Shown here piece after piece: positions 9,874-62,596 of a stretch of DNA of 64,000 bases. This DNA comes from an uncultured Phenylobacterium sp. GTDB lineage: Bacteria > Pseudomonadota > Alphaproteobacteria > Caulobacterales > Caulobacteraceae. Each line of letters opens with the position of its first letter. The stretch's first letter is position 1. The position numbers and the translations under genes are program-made. Location of the stretch: positions 108,460-172,459 of the forward strand of contig CAZNPJ010000005.1 in the NCBI GenBank assembly GCA_964575195.1, in the 5' to 3' direction. Under the pieces are notes generated by a model. That model saw only the letters and a list, made by a program, of their open reading frames with translations. It did not search any database and was not told the origin of the DNA.

Positions 9874-10563
9874 CTAGGACGCCGCCTCGCTGTCGACCTC
9901 GTCGGCGGGGCAGATCAGGCGGTAGCCCAGGCCACGCACGGTCTCGATCCGGTCCGAGCCAATCTTCTTGCGCACGCGACCGATGAAGACCTCGATGGTG
10001 TTGCTGTCGCGGTCAAAATCCTGGTCGTAGAGATGTTCGACCAGCTCGGTGCGGCTGATGACCCGGCCCTGGTGCATCATCAGATAGTGCAGCAGGCGGT
10101 ACTCCAGCGAGGTCAGCCGCAGCGGTTCGCCGTTGACGCTGGCGCGGGCGGCGCGGGGATCCAGCCGCAAACCGCCGCAGGCGAGGCTCGGGCTGGCGTG
10201 GCCAGCGGTGCGACGCAGCAGCGCGCGCAGGCGGGCCAGCAGTTCCTCGGTGTGGAATGGCTTGGTCAGATAGTCGTCGGCGCCGGCGTCGAACCCGGCC
10301 ACCTTCTCACTCCAGGCGCCACGGGCGGTCAGGATCAACACGGGGCTGGCCATGTTCTCGCGCCGCCAGCGCTCCAGCACCGACACGCCGTCCACCTTGG
10401 GCAGGCCCAGGTCCAGGATCACCGCATCGTAGGGCTCGGTCTCGCCCAGGAACTGAGCTTCCTCGCCGTCCGGGGCATGATCGACCGCATAGCCGGCGTC
10501 GGCCAGAGCCAGCTTCAGCTGCCGCGACAGATCGGGATCGTCTTCAACAAGCAGGATGCGCAC
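9874..10563 (-). CDS. OmpR-family response regulator (FeuP/PhoP-like)
   Basis: VEDD, DLGLP, KPF; SNTIEVFIGRVRKK helix; TVRGLGY. Confidence 0.95.
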   Translation of the reverse strand: MRILLVEDDPDLSRQLKLALADAGYAVDHAPDGEEAQFLGETEPYDAVILDLGLPKVDGVSVLERWRRENMASPVLILTARGAWSEKVAGFDAGADDYLTKPFHTEELLARLRALLRRTAGHASPSLACGGLRLDPRAARASVNGEPLRLTSLEYRLLHYLMMHQGRVISRTELVEHLYDQDFDRDSNTIEVFIGRVRKKIGSDRIETVRGLGYRLICPADEVDSEAAS

Positions 10564-19539: not shown

Positions 19540-19624
19540 CGACCCGCTCCGGCCCGCTGGCGTCCCACCTTGGAACGTCCCCACCGGGCTTTGCTGGAAC
19601 ACAGCAAACCCGGAGCCGCTCCCT

Positions 19625-19657
19625 TTAACAAGTCATTAACTTGCGATGTATGGTTAA
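19625..19657. promoter_or_regulatory. CtrA binding sites (full TTAA-N7-TTAAC box plus TTAACCAT half-site)
   Basis: ttaa-caagtca-ttaac at 19625-19640; atggttaa (TTAACCAT on minus) at 19650-19657; upstream of the 18166-19539 gene. Confidence 0.8.
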
Positions 19658-38780: not shown

Positions 38781-40304
38781 ATGCATTTTAGGTTGTGGAC
38801 GGGAAATCACACAACCGGCGTGGCAAGTAGGGTTGCAGGCCTTCACGTTCTGAAAGGCCAACTTTTGGCGATCGGCGGATCTGTCGCGGCCCTGGCCGCG
38901 CTCTATGCCGCGCGTCCAATGCTCGGCCACTCGGTCTATCTGTTCTGCGCGCCGGTGCTGCTGGCGTGCGCCGCCTATGGCGGAGCCGCGGCTGTGCTGA
39001 CGGCCGCGGTGCTGATGACGGCCGGCGGGTTGGGTCTGGACGCCCTGGCCGGCCTGCCGCTGCTGGAACGGTTGGCCCGCGCCGGCTGGTTCCTGGCCCT
39101 GGGGCTGGGCCTGGCCATCTGGGTGCGAACGGTGACGCGCGAGCGCGTGGCCGCGGCCGAGATCATCGCCGACCAGGCCGAACGCGAGGAATTGCTGCAG
39201 GCCAGCCTCGAGATCGTCGCCGACGCGCTGATCCTGATCGACGCCGACGGTGTCATCCAGAGCTTCAGTCATCCTGCCGAGCGGCTGTTCGGCTGGACGG
39301 CGGCGGAGGTCGTCGGGCAGCACATCAATGGGCTGATGCCCCCGCACGAGGCCGGCGCCCTGACGGGCCGAACGACGGGCGACGACGCCGACGTGAGCGG
39401 CAGCTACCGCAAGCTCACCGGCCTGCGGCGAGACGGCGCCTCGTTCCCGATGGAGGTGCGGGTCGGCGACGTCACCATCGCCTCGCGGCGCCTGCTGACG
39501 ATGGTCGTGCGAGACCTGACCTCGGTTCAGGAGGCCGAGCGTCGGTCCGAGGAACTGCGCCAACAACTGACACAGGTCTGGAGCGCCAACTCCATGGGCG
39601 AGATGGCCTCGGTGCTGGCGCACGAGTTGAACCAGCCCCTGTCGGCGGTGGCCAACTATCTGCGCGCCGCGCGCAACCTCATCGCCCGGCTTGAGCTGGA
39701 CGACGACGACCTGCTGGACGCCGTCGCCCGCGCCGGCGACCAGGCGGTGCGCGCCGGCGAGATCATCCGCACCATGCGCGACCTGGCCAACCGCGGAGGC
39801 ACCCTCCAAAAGCCGGAAAGCCTGTCCGGCATGATCGGCGAGGTGGACTTCATCATCGCCCTGATGGCGCGCGATGCGAACGTTCGTCTGGTCTACGACC
39901 TCCACAAGGGGGACGACACGGTCATCGCCGACCGGATTCAGATCCAGCAACTTGTCGTCAACCTGGCGCGCAACGGCATCGAAGCTGTGACCAAGTACCC
40001 GAACCGCCAGATCAACATTTCGACCCGCCTGGATTCAGGCAATCAGCTGGTGACGACAGTCGAGGACAGTGGACCGGGCGTCGACCCCAGCGTCGCCGAC
40101 CGGTTGTTTCAGCCCTTGGCTAGCACAAAGCCGGAAGGCATGGGGCTAGGCCTCTCAATTTCCAGTGCTATAGTCGAAAATCATAAGGGGCGTATCTGGG
40201 TCGAATCCAGTCGTCTCGGGGGCGCCGCATTCCGTTTCGTGCTGGCGCGGGCAGGTGAGGATGGCGAGCGCAGCGGGGGATCGGACGGTGTTCGTCGTCG
40301 ATGA
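38781..40304 (+). CDS. FixL-like membrane PAS sensor histidine kinase
   Basis: N-terminal TMs, PAS (DALILID...AERLFG...RRDGASFPME), MGEMASVLAHELNQPL H-box, GMGLGLSIS; start uncertain. Confidence 0.88.
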   Translation: MHFRLWTGNHTTGVASRVAGLHVLKGQLLAIGGSVAALAALYAARPMLGHSVYLFCAPVLLACAAYGGAAAVLTAAVLMTAGGLGLDALAGLPLLERLARAGWFLALGLGLAIWVRTVTRERVAAAEIIADQAEREELLQASLEIVADALILIDADGVIQSFSHPAERLFGWTAAEVVGQHINGLMPPHEAGALTGRTTGDDADVSGSYRKLTGLRRDGASFPMEVRVGDVTIASRRLLTMVVRDLTSVQEAERRSEELRQQLTQVWSANSMGEMASVLAHELNQPLSAVANYLRAARNLIARLELDDDDLLDAVARAGDQAVRAGEIIRTMRDLANRGGTLQKPESLSGMIGEVDFIIALMARDANVRLVYDLHKGDDTVIADRIQIQQLVVNLARNGIEAVTKYPNRQINISTRLDSGNQLVTTVEDSGPGVDPSVADRLFQPLASTKPEGMGLGLSISSAIVENHKGRIWVESSRLGGAAFRFVLARAGEDGERSGGSDGVRRR

Positions 40305-40881
40305 TGACGACGCGGCGCGTGATTCCCTTGTCATGCTCCTGAAGTCCGATGGCCTGACGGCCCGTGGCTATGCCTCAGCCCACGATTTCCTCGCCACGTT
40401 CGATCCCCAGGCGCGCGGCTCGATCATCACCGACCTGCGGATGCCCAGTATGGACGGGATCGAGTTGATACGGGCGCTGAAGGCGGTGGGGTGCATCCTG
40501 CCTGTGATCGTCATCACCGGGCACGCGGACGTGAGCCGGGCGGTCGACGCCATGAAGGCCGGCGCCGTGGATTTCATCGAGAAGCCCTACGAGAGCGAAC
40601 TGATCCTCCGGGTGGTGCGCCACTGCCTGGAAGAAAACGACGCCGCCGTGGACGCCGGGGCCTCGCGCACGCGGGTGCTGCGGCGCCTGGAAAGCCTGAC
40701 CCCACGCGAGCGCCAGGTGCTGGATCTGATCATCGACGGGGCCAGCAACAAGGTGATCGCCGCCAGCCTGGCGATCAGTCCGCGCACCGTGGAGATCTAC
40801 AGGGCGAATGTGATGTCGAAGATGCGAGCTGACAGTCTGTCGGACCTGATCCGTTCGACCATCACGGCGGGCGCGGCCTAA
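40261..40881 (+). CDS. FixJ-like response regulator (REC + LuxR HTH)
   Basis: VVDDD, TDLRMP, ITGHADV, EKPY, LTPRERQV, ISPRTVEIYRANVMSKM. Confidence 0.92.
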   Translation: MASAAGDRTVFVVDDDDAARDSLVMLLKSDGLTARGYASAHDFLATFDPQARGSIITDLRMPSMDGIELIRALKAVGCILPVIVITGHADVSRAVDAMKAGAVDFIEKPYESELILRVVRHCLEENDAAVDAGASRTRVLRRLESLTPRERQVLDLIIDGASNKVIAASLAISPRTVEIYRANVMSKMRADSLSDLIRSTITAGAA

Positions 40882-41723
40882 GCGCGCGGCAGATACAGGG
40901 TCGCGATCGTGCCGCGCCCTGGCGCGGACACCAGCTTCAAGGCGCCCCCGGCGCGCTCGGCGAAGGCGCGAACGCCGCTCAGGCCCAGGCCCGTGCCGCC
41001 CCGACCCGCGCGGGTCGTGAAAAAGGGGTCGGTCGCCCGCGCCAGGACCTCGGGCGACATGCCGATCCCGCGATCGATCACCGAGAAGGCGACGTAGGGC
41101 GCGCCACGGACAGACGCGGCCTTGGTGGCGATCTGGACGGCGCCGCCATCGGGCATGGCGTGGCCGGCGTTGATGCACAGGTTCAGCAGCGCCGATTCCA
41201 GCCCGGTGCGGTCGGCGCGGCAGGCCAGCGGCTCGGCCATGGCCAGGGCGACGACGGTGATGCTGGATGCCGTCGCCACCTGGGCGAGGCGCGACGTGGT
41301 CACCACGACCTCCGCGGCGTCGATCACCCCGTCGTCGATCTCCGGTTGGGTCAGGTCGACCAGCCGGGCCAGGAGATCGGCGCCCTTCTCGGCGGCTTCC
41401 TGCGCCACGCGGGCCAACTCCCAGGCGTCGGAGCCCTCGGCCATCTGAGCGGCCAGCGCCTCGTTCGCCGCCAGGATCACCCCCAGCAGGTTGTTGAAGT
41501 CATGCGCCAGCACGCCTGCGCGGGACTGCGCGGAGTCGGGACGCCGGTCGTCGGCGATGCTCCGCAGTGTCCCGTGGCGCGCCGCGCGGACAGGCGATCG
41601 CCGAGGCGCCTGCGCCACGGCGCGCACCGCCGGTCGGTCCCGCAGGCCCTTCGAAACCGCCATCCCGTCAGCGCTCATCGCCGCCGCCCCGTCCTCGCCA
41701 TGGCCAACCGTGGCCCGGTCCAT
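40878..41723 (-). CDS. Sensor-less, receiver-less histidine kinase (CckA/NtrB-type core)
   Basis: AHDFNNLLGVI H-box, LLNLCINA N-box, DRGIGM, PFFTT..GTGLGLS. Confidence 0.85.
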   Translation of the reverse strand: MDRATVGHGEDGAAAMSADGMAVSKGLRDRPAVRAVAQAPRRSPVRAARHGTLRSIADDRRPDSAQSRAGVLAHDFNNLLGVILAANEALAAQMAEGSDAWELARVAQEAAEKGADLLARLVDLTQPEIDDGVIDAAEVVVTTSRLAQVATASSITVVALAMAEPLACRADRTGLESALLNLCINAGHAMPDGGAVQIATKAASVRGAPYVAFSVIDRGIGMSPEVLARATDPFFTTRAGRGGTGLGLSGVRAFAERAGGALKLVSAPGRGTIATLYLPRA

Positions 41724-41728
41724 CGCCG

Positions 41729-42424
41729 TCAGGCCGCCAGCCGTTCGGACTTGGCGTCGCGCAGCATGTAGCCGCCGCCCCAGACGGTCTCGATCTGGCT
41801 GTCGCCACCCGCCGCCGCCGCGATCTTCTTCCGCAGCTTGCAGATGAAAACGTCGATGATCTTGATCTCGGGCTCGCTTAGGCCGTTGTAGAGGTGGTTG
41901 AGGCAGGCCTCTTTGGTGAGGACCGTGTTCTTCCGCAGAGAGAGCAGCTCCAGCATCTTGTACTCGCTGGGCGTCAGGTGGATCTGTTTGCCGGCCACCT
42001 CGACCGTTCGGGTGTTGAGGTTGAGCGCGATCTGGCCCGTGCGCAGGATCGACTCGACGTGCCCGCGCGAGCGCCGCACCACCGCCGTGATCCGCGCGCC
42101 CAGCTCGGACTTGTGGAACGGCTTGGTCACATAGTCGTCGGCGCCGGCCGCCAGGGCCGCAACCTTGGTCTCCACGTCGGTCGTGCCCGACAGAATGATC
42201 ACCGGCGTCGGGTTCTTACGCAGCCGAAGTTCCCGCAGCGCCTCGACCCCGCTGATGTCCTCGAGGTCCAGGTCCATCAGGATCGCGTCGTATTCGTAGA
42301 TCTCGGCCAGCTCGATGGACTCCTCGCCCGACGCTGTCATCGAGACATTATGGCCCTCGGCGCCCAGGATCAGCTTCACGCTGCGGGCGGTCGCGTCGTT
42401 ATCTTCCACAAGCAGAATATGCAT
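41729..42424 (-). CDS. Divergent CtrA-family response regulator
   Basis: 231 aa; YKMLELLSLRK, LNHLY, EPEIKIIDVFICKLRKK, IETVWG; receiver domain clearly diverged from canonical CtrA as recalled. Confidence 0.9.
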   Translation of the reverse strand: MHILLVEDNDATARSVKLILGAEGHNVSMTASGEESIELAEIYEYDAILMDLDLEDISGVEALRELRLRKNPTPVIILSGTTDVETKVAALAAGADDYVTKPFHKSELGARITAVVRRSRGHVESILRTGQIALNLNTRTVEVAGKQIHLTPSEYKMLELLSLRKNTVLTKEACLNHLYNGLSEPEIKIIDVFICKLRKKIAAAAGGDSQIETVWGGGYMLRDAKSERLAA

Positions 42425-42435
42425 CGGATCTTCCC

Positions 42436-42849
42436 CTAACGATCGGTCGTATTGATGGCGGTTTCGGTGGTCGCGGGTGCGTCAGAGATGACCGCTTGGG
42501 ACATCTTCATCAGCTCGGACATACGGAAGGGCTTGGCCAGCACCTGGTCGGCGCCGAGGTGGCGGGCCCAGCTCAGATAGTCAGCGCCGCGGGCGCGGCC
42601 CGCGCCGGAGATGGCGATCACCTTGGGCGGCCGAGCGCCCTGCTTAATCGCGCGGATGCAGCCGATGCCCTCGATGTCGGGCATGACGATGTCGGTCACC
42701 ACGAGGTCGGGCTTGTAGGCGCCGGCCATGCGCAGCCCGGAGCGGCCGTTGTCGGCGGCGGCGGTCTGATAGCCCGCCGCTTCGAACGCCATCGACATCA
42801 GGCGCAACAGCGCCGCGTCGTCGTCGATAATCAGAACTCTACCACCCAT
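42436..42849 (-). CDS. Single-domain response regulator (receiver only)
   Basis: IIDDD, TDIVMP, AISG, AKPF; start re-picked at ATG 42849. Confidence 0.9.
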   Translation of the reverse strand: MGGRVLIIDDDAALLRLMSMAFEAAGYQTAAADNGRSGLRMAGAYKPDLVVTDIVMPDIEGIGCIRAIKQGARPPKVIAISGAGRARGADYLSWARHLGADQVLAKPFRMSELMKMSQAVISDAPATTETAINTTDR

Positions 42850-42956
42850 GGTCGTCCCCAACCGTCGAGGACCGCCCTCGAACCGACGCCCCAGCCCCCG
42901 GGGTGCGCGCGCTTCTGAGGAGTGTCCCGAGGTCATCCGTGGCCCGTCTTTCGTCG

Positions 42957-42974
42957 TTAATCCGTATGGTTAAC
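42957..42974 (-). promoter_or_regulatory. CtrA-type half-sites upstream of the REC/CtrA-like/kinase operon
   Basis: Minus strand reads TTAACCATacggaTTAAC: TTAACCAT motif plus a second TTAAC at 9-bp spacing. Confidence 0.55.
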
Positions 42975-43128
42975 GAGTAAGAACCACAGTGATTCGGGGC
43001 GTGGAAACCTGGGACGATTGCTTAGGTAGAGTCCCCGAGTGACGGGGTGTCGCAGCATCGTGGGGTTGTCTGATCCGGGCAGCTCTGCCTTGGCGGCCTG
43101 GAGAAGGCCGGCGCAGGACGACGAACCG

Positions 43129-43172
43129 TGGCTGGGGAACTAGGACTCGAACCTAGAATGACGGTACCAAAA
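43129..43172 (-). mobile_element. Prophage att site: 3' half of tRNA-Gln(UUG), from anticodon loop to CCA
   Basis: Minus strand TTTTGGT ACCGT CATT CTAGG TTCGAGT CCTAG TTCCCCA GCCA; the upstream bases (ACCGA) cannot pair with ACCGT, so the 5' half is absent. Confidence 0.88.
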
Positions 43173-43191
43173 TCGGTCCCGTTTCCCGCAA

Positions 43192-45329: not shown

Positions 45330-45639
45330 AGGCGATCTCCCTTATGACCTTGGCCGAGGCGCGGGCCTGCTTTACCCGCACGTCGCATTGCAGGGCGGTA
45401 TCGTTGACGGCGGTGCGCGCCTGGACGTTCTCTTCGCCCCGGAGGCGTTCGGCCTTGCGGAAACCGGCTTCCCACCCGCGGGCCGCATCCTTCCAATCGT
45501 CGGCCGCCACGCGCCAGGCGTCGCGGTCCTGCCCGATCCGGTGAAGCTGGGCGCCGTAGCCGATGACCGGCGTGACGTGGGCGATGGCGATGACCAGGCT
45601 GGCCGCCACCGCATAGGCGATCAGGCGAAGGGTGATCAT
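45232..45639 (-). CDS. i-spanin (Rz-like)
   Basis: N-terminal TM (MITLRLIAYAVAASLVIAIA) then coiled coil; ATG overlaps the endolysin stop. Confidence 0.75.
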   Translation of the reverse strand: MITLRLIAYAVAASLVIAIAHVTPVIGYGAQLHRIGQDRDAWRVAADDWKDAARGWEAGFRKAERLRGEENVQARTAVNDTALQCDVRVKQARASAKVIREIAYAPVKADAAGCPVRGVVGAERLRDALQAGPGR

Positions 45640-46118
45640 AGGCCGCGCTCGCACAGGGTCCGCTCGGCCGCCCGGCGGCGCACCAGGCCCGCCATCTCCC
45701 GCCCGCCGGCCTTCGTCCAACGCGACAGCTCAGCACACGCGCCGCGGAGATCGCCTGCCAGCGCCTTGCGCGACAGGGTCGATTTGCAGAAGGCCCCGGT
45801 CCCGACGTTGAAGCCGAACGACGTGAAGGCAGCCCGCGTCTCGATGGGCAGGTCCGCCGGCAGGCAAGGGGCGATCTCCAGCCCGTGCTTCACCGCGTCG
45901 GCGGCCAGCATGTTCGCGCACTCCTGTTCGGTGTAGCGCCGGCCGATGACGATGCCCGCCGTCGCGCCGTAGCAGGCCGTCGGCAGCTTCACGCCCAGCG
46001 CCGGGTCGGGATAGCCCACGGGCACGAAGCCCTCGAAGTCGGCGATCAGCGGGACAGCCAGGGCGCCGGCCGCCATGACAGCGGCCACGCCGGCGGCGAT
46101 GCTCTTGCCCTTGCTCAT
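45636..46118 (-). CDS. SAR endolysin (GH24 lysozyme)
   Basis: Lys-rich start, Ala/Gly-rich SAR segment, FEG-x7-D, TACYG, FNVGTGAFCKSTL, GLVRRRAAE. Confidence 0.92.
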   Translation of the reverse strand: MSKGKSIAAGVAAVMAAGALAVPLIADFEGFVPVGYPDPALGVKLPTACYGATAGIVIGRRYTEQECANMLAADAVKHGLEIAPCLPADLPIETRAAFTSFGFNVGTGAFCKSTLSRKALAGDLRGACAELSRWTKAGGREMAGLVRRRAAERTLCERGL

Positions 46119-46567
46119 GGATGCGCCGCCAGGATGGCCGCGTGAATCGCCACGATGCCGGGCCACAGGATTTGATAGGCCAGAACGGCCCCGCCCAGCG
46201 CGCCCAGGATCGTGCCGGCGATCTTGAGATGGCCCCGCCACCCCATGTCCGCCTTGATCTTCACCGTGCCGGTCTGCAACTGGCCGCCGAGGGCCTTGGC
46301 GAGCGCCGAGACGCTGCCCTCGGTGACCGTCTGCCGGGTGTTCAACGTGCCGACCGTCGTGGCGATGTCCTCGACCTGCCGGCCCAGGGCCTCGCGCTTC
46401 TCGTTGGCGATCTCGTGCGCGGCCTCTGTCGCGCGGATGTGGGTTTCGAGACACCCGTGGGTGGCCTCCGCCTGCTTTAGCGCGGCGATCAGCAGTTGCC
46501 GGTCGGTCTTGCCCCTCGGGTCGATGCGGACGAATTCACCCACCGCGCGATCTCCATGCGATTTCAT
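46115..46567 (-). CDS. Membrane protein upstream of the endolysin (candidate holin/antiholin)
   Basis: Coiled-coil N-terminus with a C-terminal hydrophobic segment; stop overlaps the endolysin ATG. Confidence 0.6.
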   Translation of the reverse strand: MKSHGDRAVGEFVRIDPRGKTDRQLLIAALKQAEATHGCLETHIRATEAAHEIANEKREALGRQVEDIATTVGTLNTRQTVTEGSVSALAKALGGQLQTGTVKIKADMGWRGHLKIAGTILGALGGAVLAYQILWPGIVAIHAAILAAHP

Positions 46568-48767: not shown

Positions 48768-49678
48768 CAGGTGAGGCCCTTGATTTCGAGACTGCAGAGG
48801 GTCAGGTCGGGATAGGCGATCTCTTCGTCGAACGACGCGAAGAAGCCCCAGATCGCGGTCGAGGTGTATTGGCCGGAGGCCACCCAGAGGGCCGGCGTCG
48901 CCCGGTATGCGGCCAGGGTCTCGGCCAGCTCGTCGGTGAAGTCCGCCGCCACGTTGATCACCGCGTTCATCGTCTTCGAGAAGGCGCGCTCGACCACGAC
49001 GAAGTTGCCGAGTTCGTTGACCTCTTTGCGGGAATAGTCGTCGATCCCGATCCGCACGCCCCACTGCGTCGTGCCCAGAGACTTCGCCAGACCGGGCGTG
49101 ACCAGGCCGCACTTGGCGACCGCGCCCGGATCAGAGAGCACCACGTCCAGCGTCACGCCGGGATAGGGCGGGAGGTCCTGCAGCAGCACAGACTTGAGCC
49201 GCGAGATGGGCTCGAAGCACCATCCATAGAAGTCGGTGATCCCCGATAGCGAGATCAGATCGAAGCTCGCCTCTCGAACGACGCCGTCGACCGCGTCGGT
49301 GATCGTGACGTCCAACGTGGCCGCGTCGAGATTGTCCAGCCAAAGGGTATCCAGCAGGACGCCGCCGTCGAACGCGATCGAGACGGTGATCGTCTCGGCG
49401 TTCTCGGTCTGCGACTGCACCGCGTTGTCGAACATCTTGAAGGCGTTGACCGCCCCGAGATCGACCCAATGATCCTCGGCCACATCGAGCGCCGGGTCGT
49501 TGCCCAGATTGGTCCCGTGAAGACTCTCGAACCGATGCCAGATGTCGTCCTTGAGACGACGCACGATGGCCGCGTCGGCATAGGTCGTCAGCGCCGCCCA
49601 GGCGGCCTCGGTCATGGCAACATTGGTCGTCACCATGCCTGCCGTGATCGGCTCCGGCCGGATAAGGTCGAAGGTCAT
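48767..49678 (-). CDS. Post-tape-measure tail protein (Dit-like, possible carbohydrate-binding insert)
   Basis: ATG overlaps the tape measure stop; DYSRKE...RATPALW...IKGL C-terminal region. Confidence 0.65.
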   Translation of the reverse strand: MTFDLIRPEPITAGMVTTNVAMTEAAWAALTTYADAAIVRRLKDDIWHRFESLHGTNLGNDPALDVAEDHWVDLGAVNAFKMFDNAVQSQTENAETITVSIAFDGGVLLDTLWLDNLDAATLDVTITDAVDGVVREASFDLISLSGITDFYGWCFEPISRLKSVLLQDLPPYPGVTLDVVLSDPGAVAKCGLVTPGLAKSLGTTQWGVRIGIDDYSRKEVNELGNFVVVERAFSKTMNAVINVAADFTDELAETLAAYRATPALWVASGQYTSTAIWGFFASFDEEIAYPDLTLCSLEIKGLT

Positions 49679-52600
49679 GCGACGTCCCTGATTTCGGGCA
49701 TGCCGTCGCCGTTCCAAAGCCTCAGATAGCGAAGGTTGCCGGTGTTGACGACGCCTTGCTCCGTGGCGATCGTGAGCTTGGCGAGGGCCGCGACCACGTC
49801 GGCGTTGGAGATGTTCATGCCGGCGGCGGACAGGTCGACCGCCTCCGATCCGCCAAGCCCCGCGACGGTCGCCTGTGCCGCCGCGACATCGATTCCAACG
49901 AGGCTGGCGGGATCGACGCTCACGACCGGCGTGCTGATATTGGTCGCGGATGCAGCCGACGAGGCCGCCTGCACGGCGGCGGCGACTTGTGAAGCTACGG
50001 CGGCGAGCGCACCGTTCGCCTGGGCCTGGACGGCCGCAGCCGCCTGCACCGCCTTGACGACATCGAGAACGCGATCCTCGACAGCCTTGACGCCGAGCCG
50101 AATGCCGAGCTGTCCCTCGACCATGGAATTCAGCGCGTCGATCTCTGTGCGTGCGGCTGCAGCTTGAGCCTTCGCCAGCGCCTCGCCGTTCGTAAGCGCG
50201 CGACGGATCGACGCCATGTTGCGTGCATTCTCGGCCGAGCTGGCCGCGCCGCCCCGCGAGGCATCGGCGAAGGCCTTCGCAGCGGCGCCCAGCCCATCCA
50301 AAGCCGTTGCGTCACCGCCCGATACCCGCGACGCCAGATTGTCGAACTGTCGCTTCGACGCAGCCAGAGAGCTGGCCGGGCTCGTCGCCAGGCTCTCCGC
50401 TCGGAGACTAGCGTTGAGGTCCGCCAACGACTCGGCCAGGCCATCGAACCGCTCGGCGGTCTTTTCAAGTTGATCGGTGGCCGCGTCGGTAGCGGCCTCG
50501 ACCTGGGCCGTCGACGCTTCGATCTTGGCCGCCCAATCCGCCTCGGCGGCTTCGCGGGCCGCCGTCGCGTCGATGACGTCGTAGATCGCTTGCTTACGGG
50601 CGCGAAGGCCTTCGTCGGTGATGGCCTTGAGTTCGTCTTGCCGCTGCAGGGCCAACGCACCCTGCGCGTCGCCGAGCGCCTCAAGCATTTCCAGCTCAAG
50701 CGCCCGCTGTTGGTCGACCAACTTCTGCGCGTCCTGCTTGGCCCAAATCTCCTTCTGTAGCGCAGCGTTCTCGGCGCTCATTCCCTTGAGCACTTCTTCG
50801 CGCAGCGCCGCCTCGGCGCCCAAGGCGTCACCCGACGCTTCGAGAAGCTGGATTTCGAGCGCGCGCTTAGTCGCGGCCTCCTGCGCGGCCTTCTGTTCGG
50901 CCTCCGCCTTGGCCTTGGCCTCGGCTTCTTTCTTGGCTTTCTTCTTGGCTTTCGACTTGCCGAACAGTCCGCCGATCAGGCCACCGATACCGCCCACGAC
51001 CGCCCCAATGGCGGTGCCGATGCCAGGCACGATCGAACCGAGCTGCGCGCCCAAGGCAACGCCGGAGAGAACCGACCCGCCCACGCCGCCGACATAGGGC
51101 GCGACCGCCCCGGCCGCCGCCCCGACGCCTCCCGCGATTCCGTTGGCCTGTGAGCCCAGCCCACCGGTCATTGCCTTGCCGGCTGCATACGCCTTCTTAA
51201 TGCCGGCGATAGCGCCCTCGATCCCGGAGATCGCGCCGACCCAATCCTTGTTTTTGAAGGCACGGAACAGCCCGTCCACGCTCGCGCTGACGTCGTCGGC
51301 GGCTTCACGGAAGCTCTGGGCAACCGCATCGGTCGCACTAGCCGCCGGCTCGACCATCAACGGACCGAGCTTATCGAACCAGTCGCCGACTTCCTCGACC
51401 ATGTCCGGCACATAGGAATGCCCGACGACAGCGTCGTACATCTTGAAGAAGGCGTCCGAGACCCCTTGAACCTTCTTCTTCACGCTATCGAAGATGGCGG
51501 TCAGCTTATCGACCAACCAGGTCTTCACGGCCAGGAAGGTCTGCTGCACCCACTTGGCGACCTCGGGATACATTGTCCCGAAGGCGTTGGAGACGCCCTT
51601 GACGAACGCCTGCACCGCGCGACCGACGTGCTCGAACGCGCCGCTGAAATCCCCCTTGAACAGTGCGACGATGGCTTGCACCACGTGGGTGACCGCGCCG
51701 ATCATGCCGGTCAGCAAATCGACCACGCCGCCAAGGTAGCGCGCCGCCGCCGCCGCGAAGAAATTGAGGGCCTCGCTCGCGCCGCCCGCGCCGGGCCCGA
51801 AGATCAGGCCGAACACCTCACCCAACGCGGCGACCGCGCCCTTCACCGCCTCGAACAGCGGCGCGACCTTCGGCCCCACGACATCCTGCAGCGTCGTCCA
51901 GAACACCTTGAGCGCCGGCACGATCTGATTCTTGAACAGCAGGAAGGCCGCGACCACGGCGGCGACAGCCAGGCCGACCGGCCCCAGCAACGGCACAAGG
52001 CCCGCCAGCATCGGACCGACGACCGCCATCGCCGAGATCACCGAACCCAGTGCCGAGGTGAAGGCGCCACCGACGAGAACAGCGGCGCCGAACGCCGCCG
52101 CCGCCGCGGCGACCGCGACGCCGACCTTGAGCAGCACAGGGTCGGCTTCGCTTAGCTTTTCGAGCAGACCCGTCAAGCCGCTGACGAGGGCGGTGGCCGC
52201 CTGCAAGAGACCGGCTTTCCCGATGGCGATGCCCAGATCCTCGAACGACCCGCGCAGTTGTTCCATCTGGCCGGCGAAGCCTTCCATCCGCTTCGCCGCC
52301 TGGGCCGCTGCGTCGGTCTCCGCGATCTTCTGCTTGATCTTGTCCAGGCCTTGCGCGCCCAGATCCATCAAGCCAAGCGCCGTCCGCATGGCGTCGGTCC
52401 CGAAGATGTCCTTCAGAACTTCGTTCTTCGCCTCGTCGGACAGGCCGCCCAGCTTCTCCCGCAGCATCTCGGCGATGTCGGAAACCGACTTCATCCGGCC
52501 GCCAGCGTCAAAGAACGACAGGCCGTACTGCTGCATGGCCGCCGCGGCGTCTTTCGACTTCGGGACAAGCGTCGTCAGGAACGTTTTGAAGCTCGTCCCC

Positions 52601-53289
52601 GCATCAGAACCCGACGAGAACAACGCTGAGGTCCCGGCGATCGCGGCGTTGAAATCCTCGAAGCTGACACCCAGGCCCGCCGCCACGCCGCCGGCCTGAC
52701 CCAACGCCAGCGCATAGTCGTCGAACGACAGCTTCGATTGGTTCACCGCGCCGGTGATCTGATTGACCGTCGCGGGAAGCTGGTCGCTGCTCCGCTTGAA
52801 CTGCTGGATGCTGTCGCTGATCGCCGAGGCCGCAGGCTCCAGCTCGCTACCCGCCGCGGCCGCGAGATCGACCGCCGCCTTCGCCGCGCCGCCCAGGATC
52901 GTTTGCACGTCCAGGCCGGTCTTCGCCAGCATATCCATGGCATCCGCCGCCTCGCTGGCGCTGAACACCGTACTCTTGCCGATCTGGCGGGCGGCCGTTT
53001 CCAGCGCCCCCATCTCCTTCGCTGTCGCCTGCGTGGAGATCGACACCTTGTTCATGGCCGTTTGGAAATTGGCCGAGGCCTTGAGCGCGCTCGCGCCGAG
53101 GGCCACCACAGGGGCGGTGATGCCGATGGCCAGGATGCCCCCAACCTTCTCCATCGCCGCACCCACGGACTGCATCCGCGCGCCAGCCTTCCGCAACTCG
53201 ACCTGGGCCTTGCTCAGGCCTTCGGTGAAGGTTGCGGACTCCAGACCCAGCACGACGCGAAGGGCGCCGATGGTGGCGTTACCGGCCAT
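49675..53289 (-). CDS. Phage tail tape measure protein
   Basis: 1204 aa Ala-rich; TP901-type core (FSASEAADAM...GSDAGTSFKT...IFGTDAMR); follows the tail chaperones. Confidence 0.95.
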   Translation of the reverse strand: MAGNATIGALRVVLGLESATFTEGLSKAQVELRKAGARMQSVGAAMEKVGGILAIGITAPVVALGASALKASANFQTAMNKVSISTQATAKEMGALETAARQIGKSTVFSASEAADAMDMLAKTGLDVQTILGGAAKAAVDLAAAAGSELEPAASAISDSIQQFKRSSDQLPATVNQITGAVNQSKLSFDDYALALGQAGGVAAGLGVSFEDFNAAIAGTSALFSSGSDAGTSFKTFLTTLVPKSKDAAAAMQQYGLSFFDAGGRMKSVSDIAEMLREKLGGLSDEAKNEVLKDIFGTDAMRTALGLMDLGAQGLDKIKQKIAETDAAAQAAKRMEGFAGQMEQLRGSFEDLGIAIGKAGLLQAATALVSGLTGLLEKLSEADPVLLKVGVAVAAAAAAFGAAVLVGGAFTSALGSVISAMAVVGPMLAGLVPLLGPVGLAVAAVVAAFLLFKNQIVPALKVFWTTLQDVVGPKVAPLFEAVKGAVAALGEVFGLIFGPGAGGASEALNFFAAAAARYLGGVVDLLTGMIGAVTHVVQAIVALFKGDFSGAFEHVGRAVQAFVKGVSNAFGTMYPEVAKWVQQTFLAVKTWLVDKLTAIFDSVKKKVQGVSDAFFKMYDAVVGHSYVPDMVEEVGDWFDKLGPLMVEPAASATDAVAQSFREAADDVSASVDGLFRAFKNKDWVGAISGIEGAIAGIKKAYAAGKAMTGGLGSQANGIAGGVGAAAGAVAPYVGGVGGSVLSGVALGAQLGSIVPGIGTAIGAVVGGIGGLIGGLFGKSKAKKKAKKEAEAKAKAEAEQKAAQEAATKRALEIQLLEASGDALGAEAALREEVLKGMSAENAALQKEIWAKQDAQKLVDQQRALELEMLEALGDAQGALALQRQDELKAITDEGLRARKQAIYDVIDATAAREAAEADWAAKIEASTAQVEAATDAATDQLEKTAERFDGLAESLADLNASLRAESLATSPASSLAASKRQFDNLASRVSGGDATALDGLGAAAKAFADASRGGAASSAENARNMASIRRALTNGEALAKAQAAAARTEIDALNSMVEGQLGIRLGVKAVEDRVLDVVKAVQAAAAVQAQANGALAAVASQVAAAVQAASSAASATNISTPVVSVDPASLVGIDVAAAQATVAGLGGSEAVDLSAAGMNISNADVVAALAKLTIATEQGVVNTGNLRYLRLWNGDGMPEIRDVA

Positions 53290-60651: not shown

Positions 60652-61926
60652 CTAGGCCAGCTTGAGGTGCTTCACGGCCGCGGCCGTGCCCAGCTCGCCG
60701 TCGAAACGGATCAAGCCGGCGATGCCCATGTCCGGCCAGAACCGCTCGCGCAGCACGCCGATGACCGGCGCGCCGACCTTGCGGACGTAGTAGCGGCCGA
60801 GGTCACCGAACAGGATCAGCTTCTGCCCCGTGGTGAAGGCGGAACTCATGTCCTGATTGATGCTGTAGTTGTAGCCCAGCAGCGTGCCGGGCGCGCCCGT
60901 GCGGACGTCGCCCATCTGCCACAGGTAGTTGCCTTGGCCGTCCTTGAGCTTGCGGATGGCCGCGAACACCAGGTCGTGGAACATGAACCGCGCCTTCGGC
61001 GAGCGGCGATAGGCCGGGTCCACCGAATGCAGCAGGTCGATGATCTCGTCCGCGGTGAAGGCGGTCGTCGATGCGGCGGTCTTGCCGGCCGCCGAGGCGG
61101 TGACGATCCCGTTCGGCGCCGAGCTGCCCGAACCCGTGGTGAGCTGGGCGTTGCCGATGCGGCCCAGGCGTTCGCCCAGCAGCGAGCCCAACAGGCTTTC
61201 CATCGAGAAGATGCTGTCGGAGTCCAGCTCCCACGACCACTTCACGAACTCGGTGTCGAAGCTGAAGGCGTCCAGCGACTTCTGACCGAAGGTCACGTCC
61301 TCCGAGCCATCGTCCGTCAGGGCCGCCGCTTCCGTGTGGGCGGCGCCGCTCTTGGCGGTGTCGTCGACGGTCGGGATCTTCAGCGGGTTGCCGCCCGAGG
61401 TCGTGATGACCGTGGCGACATCGCTGTCGTACATCGGCCCCCAATCCTTCATGGCCTTCTCGATGAAGCCCAGGATTTCGGTCGGGACGGTGAAGCCGCC
61501 GGCCGTGGTCGTGCCGGCCGTCTGCGCGCGCTGTTCGAACTTGGCCGTGCCGGCCCGCAGGACGGCGCGTTCCTCGGGTTCGAGGTCGGCGGGGTTCACG
61601 CCGCAGACCACCTTGGCGAAGACGTGGCGATAGGTGATCTCGGCGTCGCCTGGACCCGACTTGTCGTTCTCGGACGAGCGGTCCTCTTGGTTCGGGCGCC
61701 GGCCAGCGTTGGCGTTGCGCGCGCGCTCCTCGGCTTCGACGAGCTTGGTCTCGCGCTGGGCGCGGGCTTCCAGCTTGTCCCACTCCGCCATGGCGGCGTC
61801 GTGCTGGATCTCCAGCTCCTTCGAGCGGCTTTCGTCGGTCGAGGTGCTGATCTGGTTGAGACGCTCGCGAGCTTCGGCCAGCAGTGTGGCCTGCTTCTCA
61901 CGGAGCTCCCGGAGGTGCTGAGACAT
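60652..61926 (-). CDS. HK97-fold major capsid protein
   Basis: N-terminal coiled-coil delta domain, GGFTVPTE, GSGSSAPNGI, KLKDGQGNYLW, RFDG. Confidence 0.96.
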   Translation of the reverse strand: MSQHLRELREKQATLLAEARERLNQISTSTDESRSKELEIQHDAAMAEWDKLEARAQRETKLVEAEERARNANAGRRPNQEDRSSENDKSGPGDAEITYRHVFAKVVCGVNPADLEPEERAVLRAGTAKFEQRAQTAGTTTAGGFTVPTEILGFIEKAMKDWGPMYDSDVATVITTSGGNPLKIPTVDDTAKSGAAHTEAAALTDDGSEDVTFGQKSLDAFSFDTEFVKWSWELDSDSIFSMESLLGSLLGERLGRIGNAQLTTGSGSSAPNGIVTASAAGKTAASTTAFTADEIIDLLHSVDPAYRRSPKARFMFHDLVFAAIRKLKDGQGNYLWQMGDVRTGAPGTLLGYNYSINQDMSSAFTTGQKLILFGDLGRYYVRKVGAPVIGVLRERFWPDMGIAGLIRFDGELGTAAAVKHLKLA

Positions 61927-61996: not shown

Positions 61997-62596
61997 CTAG
62001 AGGCGCGAAGCCGTGCGGGCGCGCAGGTCGATGTCCGCGCGCAGCCGAAGGGGATTGGCCGCCGCCGGCGACCGCGATTTCAACTGACCGGCGCTGCGCG
62101 CCTCGGCCAGGCAGCGAACGCCGACCTGTGTGTCATCGTAGGCGGGATACGTCACCGGCGAGACGTCGAGCAGCTCGACCTCCAGAATGGTCCGCACCGG
62201 CAGCTCGCCGGTGTCGTCCCACTCTTGCCGCGTCGCGCGGAAGGCAAAGCTCGATTGGCTGACGTCGCCACGGTCGATCAGCGTGACCAGGTCACGCGCC
62301 CAGGCGGTGTCGGGCGTATCGACCTCGTACCGCAGCCCCTTTTCGTCTTCCGACAGACGCAGCGTCCCCGAGGCCGTCCGCCCCAGAACCAGGTTGTCGG
62401 AATGGTTGAACAGGCAGCGGACGTCGTCGCGCGCGATGGCCGCCGCGAAGGCGCCCGGCGCGATGCGCTCGATAAAATAATCCCCGATCCGCGCGTCGGA
62501 ATTGAACACGGCGGCATAGCCCACGATCTGGCGCGGCTGACCCTCAACGGGGGCGCGGCGTTCGATCTGGCCCAAGGTGCGGACTTCACGCGTCAT
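61997..62596 (-). CDS. HK97-family prohead protease
   Basis: GYAAVFN, LFNH, SFAF, DVSPVTYPAY; start re-picked at ATG 62596. Confidence 0.95.
   Translation of the reverse strand: MTREVRTLGQIERRAPVEGQPRQIVGYAAVFNSDARIGDYFIERIAPGAFAAAIARDDVRCLFNHSDNLVLGRTASGTLRLSEDEKGLRYEVDTPDTAWARDLVTLIDRGDVSQSSFAFRATRQEWDDTGELPVRTILEVELLDVSPVTYPAYDDTQVGVRCLAEARSAGQLKSRSPAAANPLRLRADIDLRARTASRL

What the first reader, a model, noticed from the sequence alone, without database searches (positions are those of the whole stretch)
41729..42424. Second, divergent CtrA with conserved recognition helix and AA tail but an altered wing
Seen: 231 aa, phospho-acceptor Asp retained (ILMDL), recognition region EPEIKIIDVFICKLRKK, C-terminus ...RLAA, wing IETVWGGGY. 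Established (from recall): CtrA is normally highly conserved in Caulobacterales, has WGRGY, and is degraded by ClpXP via its terminal AA. Inference: a paralog that could bind CtrA boxes with altered affinity and take input from another kinase, acting as a competitor or condition-specific substitute for the master regulator.
Basis: partly seen in the sequence, partly recalled or inferred. Interest (0 to 1): 0.7.

Follow-up and report, generated by a model that had tools for sequence, protein, structure and literature searches.

The report
Second, divergent CtrA with own kinase
A Phenylobacterium-type bacterium carries, besides its normal cell-cycle master regulator CtrA, a conserved and faster-evolving second CtrA that keeps the same DNA-reading helix, sits in its own three-gene signalling operon and appears wired into the cell-cycle circuit.

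Summary
All the quoted motifs are present. The protein belongs to the CtrA lineage: 321.9 bits on the curated CtrA model against 153.7 for the next family, and 100% bootstrap with CtrAs. It is not the orthologue. It falls below the 350-bit cut-off, whereas canonical CtrAs score 410-428. It is about 60% identical to every canonical CtrA, never groups with Caulobacteraceae CtrA, and lies in different synteny. It defines a conserved clade in Phenylobacterium-like genomes: WGGGY in 116/118 members, C-terminal LAA in 97/118, and dN/dS 0.21-0.31. A canonical fliI-ctrA contig tracks the window's depth across seven runs from four studies (ratio 0.91-1.26), so both genes very probably share one genome. 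Same-contig proof is missing. The gene is the middle of an operon: a CheY-like receiver, ctrA2, and a sensor-less kinase whose core resembles CckA. Upstream lies a rigidly spaced conserved block, GCGAC, two GANTC sites and GTTAACCATA, the motif types of ctrA promoter P1. A competitor or substitute role is untested. I rate it a new variant of a known kind, of moderate to high interest.

The parts
41729..42424 (-). ctrA2: a 231-aa OmpR/PhoB-type response regulator of the CtrA lineage. It has D51, the recognition helix KIIDVFICKLRKK, the wing WGGGY and a C-terminal LAA.
   Evidence: ORF and translation. Pfam domains. NF045991 scores 321.9 bits against a 350 cut-off, and the next family scores 153.7. 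The clade is conserved at 71-99% identity. AF2 model pLDDT 84 with G217 at the wing tip. dN/dS 0.21-0.31.
42436..42849 (-). Single-domain CheY-like receiver, first gene of the operon. The mechanical ORF runs up to 42936, but the homologues are 125-138 aa, which fits the ATG at 42849. There are 11 nt between its stop and the ctrA2 ATG.
   Evidence: Pfam Response_reg 81.7 bits. Present upstream of ctrA2 in every locus examined. The acceptor Asp (TDIVMPD), Ser and Lys are conserved. The nearest solved structures are generic CheY/RR468. CpdR model 53 bits against a 180 cut-off.
40878..41723 (-). Sensor-less histidine kinase consisting of DHp + CA only. It has the H-box HDFNNLL and N, G1 and G2 boxes. 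The N-terminus is variable and low-complexity, so the true start may lie downstream of 41723. The gene starts 5 nt after the ctrA2 stop.
   Evidence: HATPase_c 72.8 bits. The best solved match is the C. crescentus CckA DHp-CA core, 5IDJ, E 3.5e-20. Motifs are conserved across 7 lineages and the N-terminus varies from 0 to 65 aa. Absent in L178 and on the P0118 contig.
42955..43068 (-). Conserved non-coding regulatory block upstream of the operon. It holds GCGAC (43049-43053), GANTC#1 (43029-43033, GACTC), GANTC#2 (42991-42995, GAATC) and G-TTAACCAT-A (TTAACCAT at 42966-42973). A second TTAAC at 42956-42960 is found only in this window.
   Evidence: Alignment of 8 lineages with invariant cores. 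Spacing is rigid at 19-20 / 38 / 22 nt, while the distance to the start codon floats from 60 to 181 nt. TTAACCAT occurs twice in 64 kb against 0.07 expected. No Rfam family matches. Motif meanings come from PMC4287350, PMC4083442 and PMC6180460.
43129..43173 (-). 3' remnant of tRNA-Gln(UUG) that marks the ancestral upstream boundary of the locus. The tRNA is intact in L001 and in P. kunshanense. Here it is split by an integrated prophage.
   Evidence: ARAGORN finds tRNA-Gln intact at the same place in L001 and L174, and no tRNA in the window or L003. The alignment shows the shared 3' end. A 47-nt repeated word with raised depth lies at 43126-43172, and a loose end there reads into the tRNA 5' half.

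Best explanation
The ORF encodes a functional, conserved paralog of the cell-cycle regulator CtrA ('CtrA2'). It is found in Phenylobacterium-like Caulobacteraceae alongside the canonical ctrA. It is the middle gene of an operon: CheY-like receiver, ctrA2, then a sensor-less kinase with a CckA-like core. Proposed mechanism, with the status of each step marked. (a) [inferred] The operon kinase, and not ChpT, phosphorylates CtrA2 on D51 and also the small receiver. The receiver would act as a phosphate sink or a modulator of the kinase. (b) [inferred from an identical 13-residue recognition helix] CtrA2~P reads TTAA-type CtrA half-sites. (c) [shown as sequence, consequence inferred] Ten DBD residues that are invariant or nearly so in canonical CtrA are replaced: G152P, K153S, G166N, T168V, F174C, G180N, M182L, D183S, wing-tip R217G and V220M. 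These would change flanking or backbone contacts, affinity or half-site geometry, and the RNA-polymerase-facing loop. CtrA2 would therefore address an overlapping but distinct set of promoters, or the same promoters with a different outcome. (d) [inferred] The conserved C-terminal LAA makes it a ClpXP substrate. (e) [shown as conserved DNA, function inferred] The operon is itself plugged into the cell-cycle circuit. Its upstream block carries GCGAC (SciP-type), two GANTC (CcrM) sites and GTTAACCATA (the extended CtrA/SciP box). It is therefore probably activated or auto-activated by CtrA or CtrA2 in a replication- and methylation-dependent window.
For: CtrA lineage. NF045991 scores 321.9 bits against 153.7 for PhoB. 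The clade groups with CtrAs in 100/100 bootstraps. The receiver model superposes on Brucella CtrA REC, 4QPJ_C, at TM 0.96.

Not the orthologue. All 6 clade members tested score 305-337, below 350, while canonical CtrAs of four lineages score 410-428. Identity to canonical CtrA is 59.7-60.5%, whereas Caulobacter and Sphingomonadales CtrAs are 75-79% identical to each other. The clade groups with Caulobacteraceae CtrA in 0/100 bootstraps. Synteny is tRNA-Gln / receiver / ctrA2 / kinase / fixJL, against flhA-fliJ-fliI / ctrA / M23 peptidase for the canonical gene.

Coexistence with canonical ctrA. The fliI-ctrA contig has depths 46.8/16.6/13.1/13.3/7.64/6.8/3.9. The window locus has 49.9/18.2/12.1/10-13.6/7.43/4.5-6.4/3-5.

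Functional constraint. dN/dS is 0.21-0.31. The recognition helix and wing are frozen, with entropy 0.11 and 0.02. E7, D8, D51, S/T79 and K101 are invariant.

Separate kinase input. The kinase is adjacent in 8 of 10 lineages. Alpha1 positions 16/17/19 have H = 0.14-0.28 in canonical CtrA across orders but 1.65-2.29 in the clade. The kinase core is closest to CckA, 5IDJ.

Degron. LAA ends 97/118 members, and xAA ends all but 2.

Regulatory block., read with PMC4287350 (ctrA P1 = GCGAC at -78, GANTC at -29, TTAA half-site at -14), PMC4083442 ((G/A)TTAACCAT(A/G)) and PMC6180460.
Against: No contig or single assembly was shown to hold both genes. Coexistence rests on depth co-variation in metagenomes and on a published canonical CtrA in another Phenylobacterium species. 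No expression, DNA-binding, phosphotransfer or proteolysis data exist, and no usable RNA run was found. The kinase is missing in two lineages, so it cannot be the only input everywhere. The motifs in the block are short. Their conservation argues for function but does not say which protein binds them, and no TSS is known. The simple sigma-70 scan found no promoter, although Caulobacter promoters differ from that consensus. The tree is neighbour-joining with two outgroups. The placement of the clade outside all canonical CtrAs (76%) may be long-branch attraction. No CtrA DBD-DNA structure is in the PDB copy, so the effect of R217G is extrapolated from other OmpR/PhoB regulators.
Confidence: 0.6

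Rival explanations
1. It is the organism's only CtrA, an orthologue that simply diverged in this lineage.
For: The window contains no other ctrA. JGI's KO-based annotation calls clade members 'cell cycle response regulator CtrA'. No single contig with both genes was found.
Against: A canonical fliI-ctrA contig is present at matching depth in all seven runs examined from four studies. Phenylobacterium has a canonical CtrA 93% identical to the Caulobacter protein, and it complements ctrA(ts) (PMC2529317). The clade never groups with Caulobacteraceae CtrA (0/100), lies in different synteny and fails the curated cut-off that all canonical CtrAs pass.
Confidence: 0.05
2. It is a non-activating competitor or decoy. 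It occupies CtrA sites, or forms mixed dimers with CtrA, and damps the CtrA regulon instead of driving a regulon of its own.
For: The recognition helix is identical. The loop before the recognition helix, which in this family faces RNA polymerase, is altered at positions invariant in canonical CtrA: G180N, M182L and D183S. The operon carries a CtrA-type box, which would create negative feedback.
Against: There is no evidence on activation, and the loop changes could equally retarget activation. The dedicated kinase and receiver, together with strong conservation of D51 and the acid pocket, point to a regulated, phosphorylation-dependent output and not a passive decoy.
Confidence: 0.2
3. It has been retargeted. 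Despite the conserved helix, the ten DBD substitutions and the wing change give it a different DNA motif and a regulon unrelated to the cell cycle. The regulon might be linked to the neighbouring FixLJ oxygen-sensing system.
For: Ten canonical-invariant or near-invariant DBD residues are replaced and fixed. fixJ/fixL are adjacent in most lineages. The gene evolves at the pace of an ordinary regulator such as fixJ.
Against: All 13 residues of the base-reading helix are unchanged across the clade. L177 has the module without fixLJ, so the adjacency is not obligatory. The conserved upstream box is a CtrA-type motif.
Confidence: 0.12
4. It is a decaying or neutral duplicate, or cargo of the neighbouring prophage, with no host function.
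For: In the window and in L003 it lies next to an integrated element. It evolves far faster than canonical ctrA.
Against: dN/dS is 0.21-0.31, the reading frames are intact in all lineages, and the catalytic and DNA-reading residues are invariant. The operon lies on the chromosomal side of tRNA-Gln and is present where the tRNA is intact and no phage is inserted (L001, L174).
Confidence: 0.03

Closest known systems
Canonical CtrA (C. crescentus CtrA = P0121; Phenylobacterium-type P0199; NCBIfam NF045991)
   Same: Same two-domain OmpR/PhoB architecture and the same length (231 aa). E7, D8, D51, S79 and K101 are kept. The recognition helix KIIDVFICKLRKK is identical, T170 is kept, and the C-terminus ends in AA. 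Identity is about 60%, and the clade is monophyletic with CtrAs.
   Different: It fails the curated cut-off (305-337 against 410-428 bits). There are 25 positions fixed-different between the clades. These include wing-tip R217G, G152P/K153S, G166N, T168V, F174C, G180N/M182L/D183S, and the receiver changes P55E/D and N53D. The alpha1 specificity residues are unconstrained. It lies in different synteny with its own kinase. It diverges as fast as fixJ, whereas canonical ctrA is at least 90% identical across the family.
CckA-ChpT-CtrA/CpdR phosphorelay
   Same: A kinase core closest to CckA (5IDJ), a CtrA-type output and a single-domain receiver are encoded together. This recalls ChpT feeding both CtrA and CpdR (established knowledge, recalled).
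   Different: The kinase has no PAS or transmembrane sensor and no receiver domain, and no Hpt/ChpT-like protein is present. The CckA models score 82-103 bits against a cut-off of 1000, and CpdR scores 53 against 180. A direct two-component transfer is therefore inferred instead of a relay. The input signal is unknown.
ctrA P1 promoter of C. crescentus (PMC4287350)
   Same: The same three motif types occur in the same 5'-3' order: SciP-type GCGAC, a CcrM GANTC site, and a CtrA half-site. They are conserved across 8 lineages.
   Different: Spacing differs: GCGAC to GANTC#2 is 58 nt and GANTC#2 to TTAA is 22 nt, against about 49 and 15 nt. There is a second GANTC. The half-site is the extended GTTAACCATA form, typical of SciP-associated S-phase promoters (PMC4083442). 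There is no other sequence similarity to the canonical ctrA upstream region. The TSS is unknown.
Extra ctrA copies annotated on plasmids (for example Mesorhizobium sp. AR02 95-kb plasmid, Sphingomonas sp. JE1 220-kb plasmid)
   Same: These show that additional CtrA-type genes exist in alphaproteobacterial genomes.
   Different: PGAP names them CtrA, so they pass the model cut-off. They are 58-62% identical to this protein and are not members of this clade. No clade member was found on any plasmid.

Membership tests
CtrA (NCBIfam NF045991 equivalog / canonical cell-cycle CtrA) | Receiver + OmpR/PhoB winged-helix architecture | tested here: met
   Pfam Response_reg 95 bits and Trans_reg_C 66.6 bits. 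AF2 model pLDDT 84 with the expected secondary-structure elements. Foldseek top hits are all OmpR/PhoB regulators.
CtrA (NCBIfam NF045991 equivalog / canonical cell-cycle CtrA) | Score at or above the curated equivalog cut-off (350 bits) | tested here: not met
   321.9 bits. Five other clade members score 305-337. Canonical CtrAs of Caulobacter, the Phenylobacterium type, Sphingomonadales and two further lineages score 410-428.
CtrA (NCBIfam NF045991 equivalog / canonical cell-cycle CtrA) | Closer to CtrA than to any other OmpR-family regulator | tested here: met
   The next family, PhoB, scores 153.7 bits. Paralog plus canonical CtrAs are monophyletic in 100/100 bootstraps against two OmpR-family outgroups.
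CtrA (NCBIfam NF045991 equivalog / canonical cell-cycle CtrA) | Orthology: groups with the CtrA of its own family and shares its synteny (fliI-fliJ side) | tested here: not met
   Groups with Caulobacteraceae CtrA in 0/100 bootstraps, and the canonical CtrAs of all sampled orders exclude it in 76/100. Synteny is tRNA-Gln/receiver/ctrA2/kinase against flhA-fliJ-fliI/ctrA.
CtrA (NCBIfam NF045991 equivalog / canonical cell-cycle CtrA) | Recognition helix KIIDVFICKLRKK | tested here: met
   Identical over all 13 residues. K188-K200 are invariant or nearly so across the 40-sequence alignment, and the entropy is 0.11.
CtrA (NCBIfam NF045991 equivalog / canonical cell-cycle CtrA) | Wing WGRGY and the other DBD residues invariant across orders (G152, K153, G166, T168, F174, G180, M182, D183) | tested here: not met
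   All nine are replaced and near-fixed in the clade, while the canonical set is 51/51 invariant at each.
CtrA (NCBIfam NF045991 equivalog / canonical cell-cycle CtrA) | Phospho-acceptor Asp51 and an intact active-site pocket | tested here: met
   E7, D8, D51 and K101 are 118/118, and S/T79 is kept. However, P55 (51/51 in canonical) is E or D in 103/118, and N53 is D in 107/118.
CtrA (NCBIfam NF045991 equivalog / canonical cell-cycle CtrA) | C-terminal Ala-Ala ClpXP degron | tested here: met
   Ends in RLAA. 116/118 clade members end in xAA, and 97/118 in LAA. Actual degradation was not tested.
CtrA (NCBIfam NF045991 equivalog / canonical cell-cycle CtrA) | Phosphorylated through CckA-ChpT | not testable with these tools
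   There is indirect evidence against. Alpha1 positions 16/17/19, nearly invariant in canonical CtrA (H 0.14-0.28), vary freely in the clade (H 1.65-2.29), and a dedicated kinase is adjacent.
CtrA (NCBIfam NF045991 equivalog / canonical cell-cycle CtrA) | Binds TTAA-N7-TTAA / TTAACCAT and controls cell-cycle genes; essential | not testable with these tools
   The only evidence is the presence of a conserved GTTAACCATA upstream of its own operon.
CckA (for the adjacent kinase) | PAS/transmembrane sensor region + DHp-CA + C-terminal receiver; score at or above the curated cut-off | tested here: not met
   Only DHp-CA is present. NF046020 scores 102.6 and NF046026 scores 82.5 bits against a cut-off of 1000. 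The core is nevertheless closest to CckA 5IDJ among solved structures.
CpdR / DivK (for the small receiver) | Score at or above the curated cut-off of the CpdR or DivK-type models | tested here: not met
   CpdR NF046022 scores 53.2 against 180. The DivK-type NF045717 scores 49.2 against 160. The PDB neighbours are generic CheY/RR468.

The most novel reading that the evidence does not exclude
The receiver-CtrA2-kinase operon is a self-contained auxiliary CtrA circuit that the master cell-cycle circuit switches on, through the CtrA/SciP box and CcrM methylation sites. Its output protein reads the same half-sites as CtrA. Its changed wing and polymerase-facing loop would then partition or re-time part of the CtrA regulon, possibly through mixed CtrA:CtrA2 dimers. 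That would be a natural two-paralog version of the 'one master regulator, two promoter classes' problem in Caulobacter.
Probability: 0.25. Interest if true: 0.75.

Novelty: new variant of a known kind. Interest (0 to 1): 0.58.

Why it matters
CtrA is one of the best-studied bacterial master regulators and is usually treated as a single-copy, almost invariant protein. This clade is a natural experiment. The base-reading helix is frozen, while the wing tip, the polymerase-facing loop, the receiver's partner surface and the degron have all been re-set, and the protein has its own minimal kinase. That makes three questions directly testable. Which CtrA residues outside the recognition helix set promoter choice and affinity? 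How are paralogous two-component pathways insulated from ChpT? Can a second CtrA-type factor share or gate the cell-cycle regulon? On the practical side, KO-based annotation labels these proteins 'CtrA'. Regulon and gene-content surveys of Caulobacterales can therefore miscount ctrA or pick the wrong copy.

Tried and rejected
It returned no Phenylobacterium locus. It gave only Sphingomonadales canonical CtrAs, which were useful as references. I had briefly thought WGGGY might link the clade to sphingomonads, but all of them have WGRGY.

2. I looked for same-contig proof by matching 'longest contig' lengths between the paralog and canonical hit lists. No match turned up.

3. The listing of cluster members on ten canonical hits gave singleton clusters and no organism names.

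I got round this with a canonical locus from the metagenome collection, L094.

5. The window's own protein is not on record in the encoding-contig index.

6. Plasmid location was rejected. No clade member occurs in PLSDB.

7. A leader RNA or riboswitch reading of the conserved upstream block was rejected. There is no Rfam hit. The central GACAG-N-CTGTC palindrome leaves too small a loop. The DNA between the block and the start codon is not conserved.

8. Homology between the block and the canonical ctrA promoter was rejected, because only the TTAACCA word is shared.

9. A perfect TTAA-N7-TTAA at the locus is absent. The only one in the window is at 19625.

10. Literature searches for a described CtrA paralog in Phenylobacterium or Caulobacterales found nothing.

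11. Expression evidence: no usable RNA run exists.

12. The simple sigma-70 promoter scan found nothing at the locus.
Full report
OBSERVATION. The coordinates 41729-42424 hold a complete ATG-to-stop ORF of 231 aa, but it is on the minus strand. The plus-strand reading contains a stop. Pfam finds a receiver domain (95 bits) and an OmpR/PhoB-type winged-helix domain (66.6 bits). The window has 68.4% G+C and contains no other ctrA. The only other relatives are two ordinary OmpR-family regulators at 36-39% identity, at about 493-1155 and 9916-10563.

WHAT IT IS: CtrA LINEAGE, NOT THE ORTHOLOGUE. Against NCBI's curated models the protein scores 321.9 bits on the CtrA equivalog NF045991. That is more than twice the next family (PhoB, 153.7) but below the 350-bit cut-off. 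The separation is clean. Canonical CtrAs of C. crescentus, the Phenylobacterium type, a sphingomonad and two further lineages score 410-428, while six members of this protein's clade score 305-337. My recalled C. crescentus CtrA sequence proved exact (P0121, 100%).

The window protein is 59.7-60.5% identical to Caulobacteraceae CtrAs (receiver 55.8%, DNA-binding domain 64.0%). It is 55-59% identical to Sphingomonadales CtrAs, and 58-62% identical to CtrAs of Rhizobiales, Rhodobacterales and Azospirillum. By contrast, C. crescentus CtrA is 75-79% identical to the sphingomonad proteins. In a neighbour-joining tree with 100 bootstraps, the clade is monophyletic in 100/100 and groups with canonical CtrAs against two OmpR-family outgroups in 100/100. 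The canonical CtrAs of all sampled orders unite to its exclusion in 76/100, and it never joins the Caulobacteraceae CtrAs (0/100). Its position outside all canonical CtrAs may be a long-branch effect. I therefore do not decide between a lineage-specific duplication followed by acceleration and an older origin.

A CONSERVED CLADE UNDER SELECTION. The large protein database holds a clade at 71-99% identity. Where members are named, the labels are Phenylobacterium (including the isolate P. kunshanense), Caulobacterales, or unclassified alphaproteobacterial MAGs. Of 118 full-length members, 116 have WGGGY and 97 end in LAA, and all but two end in xAA. Of 148 close canonical CtrAs, 147 have WGRGY. 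Twenty-five positions are at least 90% conserved within each group but differ between the two groups.

Against a broad canonical set of 51 sequences from several orders, nine DNA-binding-domain positions are invariant in canonical CtrA and are replaced by a different near-fixed residue in the clade. They are G152P, K153S, G166N, T168V, F174C, G180N, M182L, D183S and R217G; V220M behaves similarly. In the receiver, P55 (51/51 canonical) is E or D in 103/118, and N53 is D in 107/118. E7, D8, D51, S/T79 and K101 are untouched.

An AlphaFold2 model (pLDDT 84.1) places G217 in the turn at the tip of the wing hairpin (strands 211-214 and 218-221). P152 and S153 lie at the N-cap of the first DBD helix. 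C174 is in the second helix, and N180, L182 and S183 are in the loop preceding the recognition helix (189-205). The receiver half superposes on the Brucella CtrA receiver from the ChpT complex at TM 0.96 and 1.0 Å rmsd. No CtrA DNA-binding domain has been solved.

dN/dS between the window gene and six other lineages is 0.21-0.31, so the gene is maintained by selection. In the same genome pairs it diverges about as much as fixJ (75-85% against 79-84% identity). The clade's mean pairwise identity (0.774) equals that of canonical CtrAs sampled across whole orders (0.797). CtrA2 therefore evolves like an ordinary regulator and not like the near-frozen master regulator. Its recognition helix and wing are nevertheless as invariant as in CtrA, with entropy 0.11 and 0.02.

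IS THERE A CANONICAL ctrA IN THE SAME GENOME? The window occurs in four runs of a bioreactor metagenome (X1-X4) and in runs of three other studies. On a canonical Caulobacteraceae-type locus from the metagenome collection (L094, in which 2-1081 is fliI and 1924-2601 is ctrA), X1 has a single 5,847-nt contig. That contig carries fliI and, starting exactly at the ATG, the first 325 nt of a canonical ctrA. The corresponding contigs in X2-X4 and in X5, X7 and X8 show the same differences from L094.

The depths of these contigs are 46.8, 16.6, 13.1, 13.3, 7.64, 6.8 and 3.9. The window's ctrA2 contigs have 49.9, 18.2, 12.1, 10.1-13.6, 7.43, 4.5-6.4 and 3.1-5.0. The ratio stays between 0.91 and 1.26, with r = 0.998. 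This is the logic of differential-coverage binning, and it makes a shared genome very probable. Independently, P. zucineum has a canonical CtrA 93% identical to the Caulobacter protein, and it complements a ctrA(ts) strain (PMC2529317). I could not show both genes on one contig. That remains the main gap.

THE LOCUS. In ten lineages examined, ctrA2 is always preceded by a 125-138-aa single-domain receiver. In eight of them it is followed by a small histidine kinase. In the window the gaps are 11 nt and 5 nt, so the three genes form an operon. The kinase consists only of a DHp domain (H-box HDFNNLL) and a catalytic domain with N, G1 and G2 boxes, behind a variable, domain-less N-terminus of 0-65 aa. 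It has no sensor and no receiver domain. Among solved structures its core is closest to C. crescentus CckA (5IDJ, E 3.5e-20), but it fails the CckA models by a wide margin. It is the fastest-evolving partner (55-62% identity, dN/dS 0.37-0.53).

The small receiver is a generic CheY-like domain with all the phosphorylation residues. It is neither CpdR nor DivK by the curated models. In canonical CtrA, alpha1 positions 16, 17 and 19 lie on the surface that docks the phosphodonor and are nearly invariant across orders (entropy 0.14-0.28). In the clade they vary freely (1.65-2.29). This is what one expects if CtrA2 no longer has to fit ChpT and instead co-evolves with its own kinase. That is an inference.

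fixJ (258.7 bits against a 255 cut-off) and a fixL-like gene lie convergently downstream in most lineages but not in L177, so that adjacency is not obligatory. Canonical ctrA has a wholly different neighbourhood: flhA, DUF4282, fliJ, fliI | ctrA | M23 peptidase.

A CONSERVED REGULATORY BLOCK. Ancestrally the operon follows tRNA-Pro(-) and tRNA-Gln(+) (L001, P. kunshanense). Between the tRNA and the receiver gene lies a block of about 110 nt that is conserved in all eight lineages compared, while the sequence on either side is not. Its invariant cores are CTGCGAC...GTCAC, a GANTC site whose middle base varies (GACTC, GAATC, GATTC), CGAATCA..GTGGTTC containing a second GANTC, and CGTTAACCA(T). 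The spacing is rigid at 19-20, 38 and 22 nt, whereas the distance to the start codon floats between 60 and 181 nt. TTAACCAT occurs only twice in the 64-kb window, against 0.07 expected.

In C. crescentus, TTAACCAT is the ungapped variant of the CtrA box (PMC6180460). (G/A)TTAACCAT(A/G), exactly the form found here, is the motif derived from SciP ChIP-seq peaks at S-phase CtrA promoters (PMC4083442). GANTC is the CcrM methylation site. The ctrA P1 promoter is described as GCGAC (SciP) at -78, GANTC at -28/-29 and a TTAA half-site at -14 (PMC4287350). The block thus carries the same three motif types in the same order, with different spacing and no other similarity to the canonical ctrA upstream region. 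There is no Rfam match, and the non-conserved leader argues against a riboswitch. I read the block as a promoter or operator that ties the operon to the CtrA/SciP/CcrM(GcrA) circuit, or to autoregulation by CtrA2. Which protein binds it is not shown.

MECHANISM PROPOSED. The operon is transcribed under cell-cycle control. The sensor-less kinase phosphorylates CtrA2, and also the small receiver, which may act as a sink or as a modulator of the kinase. CtrA2~P reads TTAA-type half-sites through its unchanged helix. Its altered wing tip, helix-1 cap and pre-recognition loop change affinity, spacing tolerance or the contact with RNA polymerase. The LAA tail delivers it to ClpXP.

What is shown: the sequence features, their conservation, the operon structure and the probable coexistence with canonical ctrA. 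What is inferred: every biochemical step. By analogy with other OmpR/PhoB-DNA complexes (recalled), loss of the wing-tip arginine should remove a backbone or minor-groove contact.

CONTEXT AND NOVELTY. The exhaustive search of cluster representatives shows many CtrA-like representatives at 45-60% identity, with assorted wing variants: WGQGY, WGHGY, WGSGY, and three WGGGY/IWGGGY that also have a changed helix. Divergent CtrA-like proteins are therefore not rare. Among the representatives that keep the exact CtrA helix, however, none has WGGGY. Extra ctrA copies are also annotated on plasmids of Mesorhizobium and Sphingomonas. I found no description of this clade or of any Caulobacterales CtrA paralog in the paper library, including the P. 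zucineum genome paper, a 2025 Caulobacterales survey and the 2010 comparative study of alphaproteobacterial cell-cycle genes. I therefore rate it a new variant of a known kind. It is a genuine, conserved second CtrA with its own minimal signalling module, and its function is untested.

VERDICT. Interest is 0.58.

Noticed in passing
window 43129-64000 (att remnant 43129-43173; endolysin 45636-46454; tape measure 49675-53289; major head 60652-61926; portal 62586-63902, all minus strand): A tailed prophage is integrated into tRNA-Gln(UUG) immediately upstream of the operon and runs off the end of the window. Only the tRNA's 3' end remains next to the operon. The same tRNA is intact in L001 and L174 and is disrupted by different cargo in L003, so this is an integration hot spot.
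   Followed up: partly
window 19625-19657 (TTAACAAGTCATTAA at 19625-19639; TTAACCAT on the minus strand at 19650-19657): The window's only perfect TTAA-N7-TTAA box and its only other TTAACCAT lie 10 nt apart. They sit in the intergenic region upstream of a 478-aa minus-strand gene (18166-19602) that has no Pfam domain, just downstream of a pseudouridine synthase gene. This is a strong candidate CtrA (or CtrA2) target.
   Followed up: partly
window 41832-41865: The Logan assemblies of all runs break at the codons of the recognition helix. A 34-nt word there has 120x depth in X1 against about 50x for the flanks. The exact DNA word is shared with ctrA genes of other community members. One neighbouring contig reads ...KLAHACGGENY, a sphingomonad-type CtrA. 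Nucleotide-level conservation of this stretch across orders can therefore fragment or chimerise ctrA genes in metagenome assemblies.
   Followed up: partly
window 38781-40881 (+): A fixL-like PAS-histidine kinase (38781-40304) and fixJ (40255-40881; 258.7 bits, just above the 255 cut-off) overlap each other by 50 nt. They converge on the ctrA2-operon kinase gene, whose stop overlaps the fixJ stop by 4 nt. This neighbourhood is conserved in most lineages but not in all.
   Followed up: partly
L178 (GCA_964495645.1) and the P0118 contig (JGI 3300071358): Two divergent clade members have the receiver-ctrA2 pair but no kinase gene after it. In L178 a 216-aa protein of unknown family on the opposite strand takes its place. 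In these lineages CtrA2 must take its phosphate from elsewhere.
   Followed up: no
clade members P0100 and P0117: Two of 118 clade members have WGRGY, and also V220, yet nest well inside the WGGGY clade in the tree. This looks like reversion to the canonical wing.
   Followed up: no
window 39187-39765 and 42806, run X4 only: One low-depth X4 contig (10.4x) joins 39187 to 39744 (skipping 556 nt, with 19 foreign letters between) and joins 39765 to 42806. The anchors are only 21-22 nt long, so this is probably an assembly-graph artefact and not a real deletion variant.
   Followed up: no
window 493-1155 (-) and 9916-10563 (-): Two further OmpR/PhoB-family response regulators lie in the window, 36-39% identical to ctrA2. 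I used them as outgroups. They are ordinary family members with TVRG.GY wings.
   Followed up: partly
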